Shown: positions 25,956 through 26,018 of the stretch, piece by piece
Position numbering within the stretch: the stretch's first letter is position 1
How the letters are laid out: every line of letters begins with the position of its first letter
DNA from: Eledone cirrhosa
Taxonomy: Eukaryota
Assembly (NCBI GenBank): GCA_964016885.1
Contig: OZ024759.1
Location: forward strand, 15,872,001-15,936,000
Length of the DNA: 64,000 nucleotides
Direction of reading: 5' to 3'
Program-made: the position numbers and the translations under genes
Notes under the pieces: generated by a model
Seen by the model: only the letters and a program-made list of their open reading frames with translations
The model's database searches: none
What the model was told of the DNA's origin: nothing

Positions 25956-26018
25956 TATTTTATCTGATGAAAGTGTACCAATGTGTCTTGGTGCCCTTGA
26001 AATATATATAATAGAATA
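25956..26018 (+). ncRNA. Type I hammerhead ribozyme, family A (best-preserved copy)
   Basis: tattttat/atagaata 8-bp stem I, CUGAUGA, aag-t-gtacca/tggtgc-c-ctt stem II, GAA, palindromic ATATATAT stem III, AUA site. Confidence 0.8.

What the first reader, a model, noticed from the sequence alone, without database searches (positions are those of the whole stretch)
25956..26018. Apparently intact hammerhead whose stem III is itself a (TA)n repeat
Seen: complete core, 8-bp stem I, long stem II, stem III ATATATAT and an AUA site. Across three copies the loop II sequence changes while stem I pairing is kept through G.U/A-U swaps. Inference: the best candidate for activity; its TA palindrome could dimerise and echoes the (TA)n neighbourhood of the element.
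Basis: partly seen in the sequence, partly recalled or inferred. Interest (0 to 1): 0.7.

Follow-up and report, generated by a model that had tools for sequence, protein, structure and literature searches.

The report
Retrotransposon hammerhead with AU-repeat pairing arm
This is a hammerhead ribozyme motif in a truncated, lone copy of a very abundant repeat that is likely the end of a Penelope-like retrotransposon; its AU-repeat arm is a longer form of a palindrome already known from such elements and would let it cut only as a pair, so it is ordinary.

Summary
The motif is real. 25956-26018 has the full type I hammerhead core, an 8-bp AU-rich stem I, a long stem II, the palindrome AUAUAUAU and an AUA site. 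There are four copies at three loci, not three copies. All three loci are head-to-head, 5'-truncated arms ending in TA repeats, with a ~90-bp extension on one arm only, the published layout of Penelope-like element (PLE) insertions. Thousands of variant contigs per run map to the stretch. No ORF was linked to this family.

Stem III is predicted unstable in a monomer, so cleavage would need a dimer, as reported for PLE hammerheads. The 'TA echo' is not supported. Drosophila virilis Penelope already has an AUAUAU stem III. Published TA-targeting families and 12 other hammerhead-like cores here lack one. None of four arms ends at the cut. This copy has the best stem II of the four, but also a near-private change predicted to favour a hairpin over the core, a slow AUA triplet and no same-strand partner. 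New member of a known kind; low interest.

The parts
25956..26018 (+). Type I hammerhead motif (the finding)
25956..25963 (+). Stem I, 5' strand (pairs with 26011-26018; 7 A-U pairs, 1 U.G)
25964..25970 (+). Core CUGAUGA (C3-A9)
   Evidence: no variant among the 40 rows shown of 76
25971..25998 (+). Stem II and variable loop II; closes with A-U, not the usual G-C; one conserved internal mismatch
25999..26010 (+). GAAA, palindromic stem III AUAUAUAU (26002-26009) and A17; predicted cut after 26010 (AUA)
26011..26018 (+). Stem I, 3' strand
25702..26062 (+). Tail-less sense arm of the insertion (likely 5'-truncated pLTR, no ORF over 68 codons); ends 52 nt past the cut at a TA-rich site; left boundary approximate
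25586..25701 (-). Inverted arm without hammerhead: 22 bp mirroring 26040-26061 plus a ~94-bp extension ('tail', 25586-25679)
25576..25585 (.). Left (TA)n flank, likely target
26063..26095 (.). Right flank: short (TA)n running into (TG)n
15219..15541 (-). Second locus of the family: tailed arm with hammerhead (15413-15353; stem II damaged) plus 32-bp inverted tail-less arm; (TA)n on both sides
11305..11765 (.). Third locus: near-perfect ~190-bp hairpin centred on 11490 with mirror hammerheads (11571-11635 +, 11409-11345 -), tail on the right arm only, (TA)n on both sides

Best explanation
The motif is a type I hammerhead inside a truncated, head-to-head insertion of a high-copy repeat, likely the pseudo-LTR of a TA-microsatellite-targeting Penelope-like retroelement, and it would cut slowly after A26010 only when two copies pair through the AUAUAUAU palindrome. 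Shown: motif, four copies, architecture, TA flanks, many variants in the genome. Predicted: closing stem III in a monomer costs 2.9 kcal/mol, while two molecules form an 8-bp stem III and exchange stem I strands. Inferred from known PLEs: in the parent element tandem pLTRs supply the two ribozymes in one transcript, probably with help from the element's protein, to process multimeric RNA. Reverse transcription likely starts at two internal sites about 50 and 140 nt past the cut, giving the tail-less and tailed arms. The (AU)4 is likely just an AT-rich solution to the palindrome requirement. This lone, aged copy is likely inactive in the cell.
For: Architecture at 3 of 3 loci: 5'-truncated arms face each other, 3' ends abut TA repeats, extension on one arm only, as described for PLEs (PMC8557442; PMC3846280; two RT start sites explain the tail in PMC11167929). 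9 of the 15 joints shown (of 34) in run contigs join the inverted arm to the sense arm at other points, so the layout recurs. 6627, 6874, 7367 and 493 contigs were laid from four runs (at most 2 samples, 1 study; not a copy number). Hammerhead dimer -26.4 against cofold minimum -27.9 kcal/mol for the bare motif. Published PLE hammerheads with AU palindromes: D. virilis AUAUAU, C. remanei and Latimeria AUAU, D. willistoni AUAGCUAU with an AUA site, as read from the extracted text of Fig. S3 of PMC4209133. In this window another hammerhead-bearing repeat (59065+) follows a GIY-YIG-like ORF end (58380-58751) in sense and ends in (TA)n; one relative of that ORF has Pfam RVT_1 and a weak GIY-YIG hit.
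Against: No RT or endonuclease sequence was linked to this family: the arm has no ORF, 150 PLE-like proteins hit the window only at 58.4-58.7 kb, and short motifs of the family were absent from the PLE consensus file of PMC8557442 (line breaks can hide motifs). The tail is ~90 bp against the 30-40 bp reported. The usual G10.1-C11.1 pair is A-U here (G in 28% of laid depth). With flanks the predicted cofold minimum is not the ribozyme fold. No cleavage was measured.
Confidence: 0.75

Rival explanations
1. The repeat is a non-autonomous element (retrozyme- or SINE-like derivative of a pLTR) that never carries an ORF and is copied in trans by a PLE protein; the ribozyme works the same way, as a dimer.
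For: No ORF in 361 bp of arm; no PLE protein hit next to any of the 3 loci; a preprint derives animal retrozymes from pLTRs (10.64898/2026.07.22.740005).
Against: No head-to-tail array at any locus. Laid depth falls steeply towards the 5' end, as for 5'-truncated retrocopies, and one 853-nt contig continues ~750 nt upstream of the part that matches.
Confidence: 0.13
2. Stem III doubles as a targeting device: self-cleavage leaves an RNA ending in UAUAUAUA, which anneals to a nicked (TA)n target and primes reverse transcription.
For: The 5' product would end in (UA)4 (sequence). The strand pairs with a (UA)n tract at -6.3 kcal/mol. All 3 loci sit in TA repeats.
Against: 0 of 4 hammerhead-bearing arms end at the cut; they end about 48, 52, 138 and 142 nt later. 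Laid depth rises past the cut (0.99 to 2.5 million in X1), and none of the 24 loose ends shown (of 695) lies behind 26010. All 26 Hydra-clade rows of File S2 have stem III starting A-C, though nearly all those families insert in (TA)n. 10 of 12 other cores in this window run into (TA)5 without a (UA)n stem III. In the anole PLE, ribozyme cleavage is not needed for insertion in vitro.
Confidence: 0.05
3. This copy is an active, host-retained ribozyme that cleaves a read-through or intronic transcript.
For: Best stem II of the four copies; core intact.
Against: It differs from 97-99% of laid depth at 25974, 25993 and 26029, as expected of neutral decay. Stem I probability is 0.12-0.15 with short flanks and 0.0 in the whole arm, stem III 0.0. 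No same-strand partner nearby.
Confidence: 0.04
4. The TA run is kept as a DNA signal (TATA-like box of the pLTR promoter, or a site for tandem self-insertion) rather than for RNA pairing.
For: 26003-26010 fits TATAWAWR (recalled consensus); a TATATATA box was proposed in a rotifer pLTR (PMC3846280).
Against: The run sits exactly in stem III register, and the one variant (ATATGTAT) keeps RNA pairing but breaks the box. No eukaryotic promoter test was run.
Confidence: 0.03

Closest known systems
PLE-associated type I hammerheads with a small palindromic helix III (Cervera and de la Pena 2014, PMC4209133), above all D. virilis Penelope (AUAUAU, C17) and D. willistoni (AUAGCUAU, A17)
   Same: Type I core, long helix II, palindromic helix III starting A-U, NUH site, scattered single motifs and opposite-strand pairs in truncated copies
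   Different: Palindrome is four AU units; stem I is 8 bp of A-U/G.U (2-5 bp typical there); A10.1-U11.1; internal mismatch in stem II; parent ORF not seen
Hammerheads of (TA)n-targeting Hydra-clade PLEs (Craig et al. 2021, PMC8557442, File S2)
   Same: (TA)n targets; 8-10-nt palindromic stem III; H17 = A in 12 of 26 rows
   Different: All 26 rows have C15.2-G16.2 (GUH site); this one has U15.2-A16.2 (AUA). Clade of this family not determined
Anolis Poseidon element PAc (Frangieh et al. 2024, PMC11167929)
   Same: Element ends lie at two sites downstream of the hammerhead, not at the cut
   Different: There the ORF starts in stem II and the tail is 30-40 bp; here no frame is kept and the tail is ~90 bp
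Non-LTR retrozymes (tandem type I hammerhead repeats)
   Same: Type I hammerhead needing a partner; no protein coded
   Different: No head-to-tail array here; inverted truncated arms instead

Membership tests
Type I hammerhead ribozyme | Core CUGANGA and GAAA | tested here: met
   25964-25970 and 25999-26002; same in 4 of 4 copies
Type I hammerhead ribozyme | NUH cleavage triplet | tested here: met
   AUA at 26008-26010; allowed but slow per PMC3138052
Type I hammerhead ribozyme | Stems I and II flanking the core, ends in stem I | tested here: met
   8 bp and 10 bp; stem I weak, -2.5 kcal/mol as a duplex
Type I hammerhead ribozyme | Stem III | tested here: inconclusive
   Predicted unstable in a monomer (+2.9 kcal/mol); 8 bp, -3.2 kcal/mol between two molecules
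Type I hammerhead ribozyme | Self-cleavage | not testable with these tools
   Needs a bench assay
PLE-type dimeric hammerhead | Palindromic 15.2-16.2 and loop 3 | tested here: met
   AUAUAUAU in 2 copies, AUAUGUAU (G.U) in the 2 mirror twins
PLE-type dimeric hammerhead | G10.1-C11.1 and an unpaired base after A9 (typical, not universal: the D. willistoni row starts stem II with A) | tested here: not met
   A-U closes stem II; G at 25971 in 28% of laid depth; published rows
Penelope-like element | ORF with telomerase-like RT and GIY-YIG endonuclease | tested here: inconclusive
   Absent from the truncated arms in this window; no genome held to look for a full copy. Hence 'likely', not filed as proven
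Penelope-like element | Inverted 5'-truncated copy joined head-to-head | tested here: met
   3 of 3 loci; 9 of 15 joints shown
Penelope-like element | Optional tail on one end only | tested here: met
   3 of 3 loci, but ~90 bp rather than 30-40 bp
Penelope-like element | Insertion into microsatellites (Neptune, Hydra, Naiad) | tested here: met
   TA repeats at 6 of 6 arm ends; at the 26 kb locus they are short. (TA)4+ tracts make up 10% of the window
Non-LTR retrozyme | Head-to-tail tandem units each with a hammerhead | tested here: not met
   No such array at the three loci

The most novel reading that the evidence does not exclude
The ribozyme writes its own targeting tail: its cut leaves an RNA ending in (UA)4 that base-pairs with a nicked (TA)n microsatellite and primes reverse transcription, so one palindrome serves as dimer helix, cleavage site and target guide. 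Such insertions could be hidden because contig ends in (TA)n assemble poorly.
Probability: 0.05. Interest if true: 0.7.

Novelty: new member of a known kind. Interest (0 to 1): 0.18.

Why it matters
As it stands it adds one more family to the thousands of PLE hammerheads known in animal genomes. Two small points may interest specialists: the (AU)n stem III series extends to four units with an AUA site, and the two fixed end points about 50 and 140 nt past the cut suggest a tail about three times the usual length. What PLE hammerheads do in vivo is still open, but a lone truncated copy does not make that question more testable; a young full-length copy would.

Tried and rejected
Rfam scan at gathering scores: 0 matches. 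Own genome: none held. RNA runs: no RNA holder listed, which says nothing on expression; the four runs laid are contigs and X1-X3 may be the window's source. Metagenome contigs: the family-specific pattern gave 0; a looser one gave 4 loci, none with a stem II closing the core or a match to the window. Viral contigs: 120 loci fetched of about 160; 3 passed a minimal stem filter and none has a stable stem II (0.0 kcal/mol), so chance. First protein search with the 58 kb ORF among longer proteins: no hit; the exhaustive search gave 798 at E up to 0.001; Pfam hit only 1 of 7 proteins scanned. The bacterial promoter scan is irrelevant here and at chance level. Earlier findings: three look-ups, nothing. 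Luense et al. 2017 on dimeric PLE hammerheads is not held; I know it only through a review. Chance motif rejected. A downstream hairpin (about 26020-26050) folds differently in the three copies and weakly (-2.1 to -2.6 kcal/mol): not claimed.

Full report
Observation. A structured scan gave 3 hits against a mean of 0.05 in 60 block shuffles, so it is not chance. Rfam found nothing at gathering scores, and the single strand folds no better than shuffles. There are four copies at three loci; two are mirror twins. Stem I varies by two one-sided changes and stem III by one; only one pair, in stem II, changes on both sides, and 266 of 500 shuffles reach the observed covariation score. Three sequences therefore neither prove nor harm the structure.

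Surroundings. Each locus has two 5'-truncated arms joined head-to-head, with 3' ends in TA repeats. One arm stops about 50 nt past the predicted cut, the other about 140 nt. At 11.3-11.8 kb the arms form a ~190-bp hairpin with a one-base loop at 11490. At 15.2-15.5 kb the tail-less arm is only 32 bp. At the finding, the hammerhead lies in the tail-less arm (about 25702-26062), and the tailed arm (25586-25701, inverted) has none. Inverted 5'-truncated copies, palindromic junctions, an optional tail at one end and (TA)n targets are the described layout of PLE insertions (PMC8557442, passages; PMC3846280, passages). In the anole element, two internal RT start sites explain the tail (PMC11167929, parts 1-2 of 4).

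Abundance. No genome is held. Contigs of four public runs (at most 2 samples, 1 study, possibly the window's source) were laid on 25582-26062 at 80% likeness: 6627, 6874, 7367 and 493 records. Summed depth is no copy number, but it spans about 660 at 25752-25768 to 2.5 million at 26007-26040 in X1, the profile of an abundant 5'-truncated repeat. Nine of the 15 joints shown (of 34) link the inverted arm to the sense arm at other points. None of the 40 variant rows shown (of 76) falls in the core or stem III; variants cluster in loop II. This copy departs from the majority at 25974 (98% C), 25993 (97% A) and 26029 (99% T), and carries the minority G at 26014 (67% A).

Parent element. The arm has no ORF over 68 codons, and 150 PLE-like proteins hit the window only at 58.4-58.7 kb. 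That hit is an endonuclease-like ORF end with a cysteine motif, followed in sense by a different hammerhead-bearing repeat that ends in (TA)n. It has 798 relatives at E up to 0.001; one of six scanned has Pfam RVT_1 and a weak GIY-YIG match. This shows PLE remnants with this layout in the window but does not link the finding's family to an ORF, so PLE membership stays 'likely'. The organism is coded in the run list; that the repeats resemble those of octopus is my recall and was not tested.

How it would work. Closing stem III in one molecule costs 2.9 kcal/mol (-6.9 against -9.8). Two molecules form an 8-bp stem III, and the double hammerhead lies 1.5 kcal/mol above the cofold minimum of the bare motif. 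This matches experiment on other PLE hammerheads: no cut as monomer, low activity as dimer or trimer (PMC4209133, parts 1-3 of 4; review PMC6765202, passages), and protein-assisted cleavage that is not needed for insertion in the anole element. In the parent element tandem pLTRs would supply the pair.

Is this copy the best candidate? Its stem II is the most stable of the family's copies here (-8.8, -3.3, +1.8 kcal/mol). Against activity: C26029 is predicted to favour a hairpin over GAAA and stem III (-3.0 against -0.6 in the 15 kb copy; in the 11.6 kb copy the -1.6 fold leaves GAAA free). With flanks the cofold minimum is not the ribozyme. Stem I probability is at most 0.15. AUA is among the slowest NUH sites (PMC3138052, passages). 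The nearest same-strand family member is 14 kb away. A (UA)n tract pairs with the stem III strand more strongly (-6.3) than the strand with itself (-4.6), so flanking repeats would compete rather than help.

The TA echo. In Fig. S3 of PMC4209133 (supplement file 2, part 2 of 3, extracted text in which the GAAA column is displaced) I read stem III as AUAUAU for D. virilis Penelope and five other Drosophila rows, AUAU for C. remanei and two Latimeria rows, and AUAGCUAU with an AUA site for D. willistoni. The finding is the four-unit member of that series. Conversely, all 26 Hydra-clade rows in File S2 of PMC8557442 begin stem III with A-C although nearly all those families insert in (TA)n (supplement part 2 of 59). 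In this window, 10 of 12 other hammerhead-like cores, grouped by eye into five families, run into (TA)5 within 250 nt with no (UA)n stem III. The one mechanistic form of the echo, priming from the (UA)4 end left by cleavage, predicts insertions that end at the cut. None of four arms does, depth rises past the cut, and none of 24 loose ends shown (of 695) lies there. The tables are cut and (TA)n ends assemble badly, so I leave it 5%.

In print? Seven paper searches and supplement searches in two papers did not show this family or a four-unit AU stem III. Not seen: Luense et al. 2017, supplement file 1 of PMC4209133, most of the PMC8557442 archive, Repbase and Dfam, and parts 2-5 and the supplements of the 2026 retrozyme preprint (part 1 of 5 read); any of them could list it. 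The octopus repeat paper PMC13282606 (passages) does not mention ribozymes.

Verdict. A real hammerhead motif in a decaying, lone pLTR-like remnant; likely dimer-dependent, slow, and inactive at this locus. New member of a known kind; interest 0.18.

Noticed in passing
window 20853+, 25308+, 46653-, 59065+, 59708+: A second hammerhead-bearing repeat family (extra U, G-C closed stem II, stem III strand not a clean palindrome). Its arms end in (TA)n about 190-240 nt past the core, or right after stem I at an internal TA run (46653).
   Followed up: partly
window 58335-59308 +: 3' end of a likely PLE: endonuclease-like ORF end with a cysteine motif, A-rich UTR, hammerhead at 59065, then (TA)n. 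Relatives include long RT-containing proteins.
   Followed up: partly
window 16092+, 25149-, 47554+; 16418-, 58059-; 12169-; 11147+: Four more hammerhead-like families, including one with the 8-nt palindrome ACAAUUGU (58059, again in a head-to-head insertion with a tail) and a textbook minimal motif with ACGU and a GUC site (11147). 16 hammerhead-like cores in 64 kb in all.
   Followed up: partly
window 11305-11675: Near-perfect ~190-bp DNA hairpin with a one-base loop at 11490 (first mismatch 183 bp out), a young fold-back insertion; a read-through RNA would form long double-stranded RNA that hides both hammerheads.
   Followed up: partly
window 48272-50494 - and 33588-34352 -: A 740-codon open frame that looks like a non-LTR retrotransposon RT with a C-terminal nuclease domain (read by eye), and a related 3' fragment.
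   Followed up: no
window 38239-40559: 2.3-kb minisatellite of a 24-bp unit (96 copies, 95% matches) that keeps long open frames on both strands.
   Followed up: no
window 28422-28948, 442-717, 19977-20424, 7843-8119: Tandem arrays with periods 136, 54, 92 and 126 bp; the first two look like duplicated 3' ends of LINE-type elements.
   Followed up: no
window 24740-24950, 26395-26550, 60330-60510: Copies of a ~200-bp SINE-like repeat.
   Followed up: no
run X4, record 32 (matches 25929-26034): An 853-nt contig of high depth with ~750 nt upstream of the hammerhead region that does not match this copy: a possible young subfamily and the best lead to the parent ORF; its sequence could not be fetched.
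   Followed up: no
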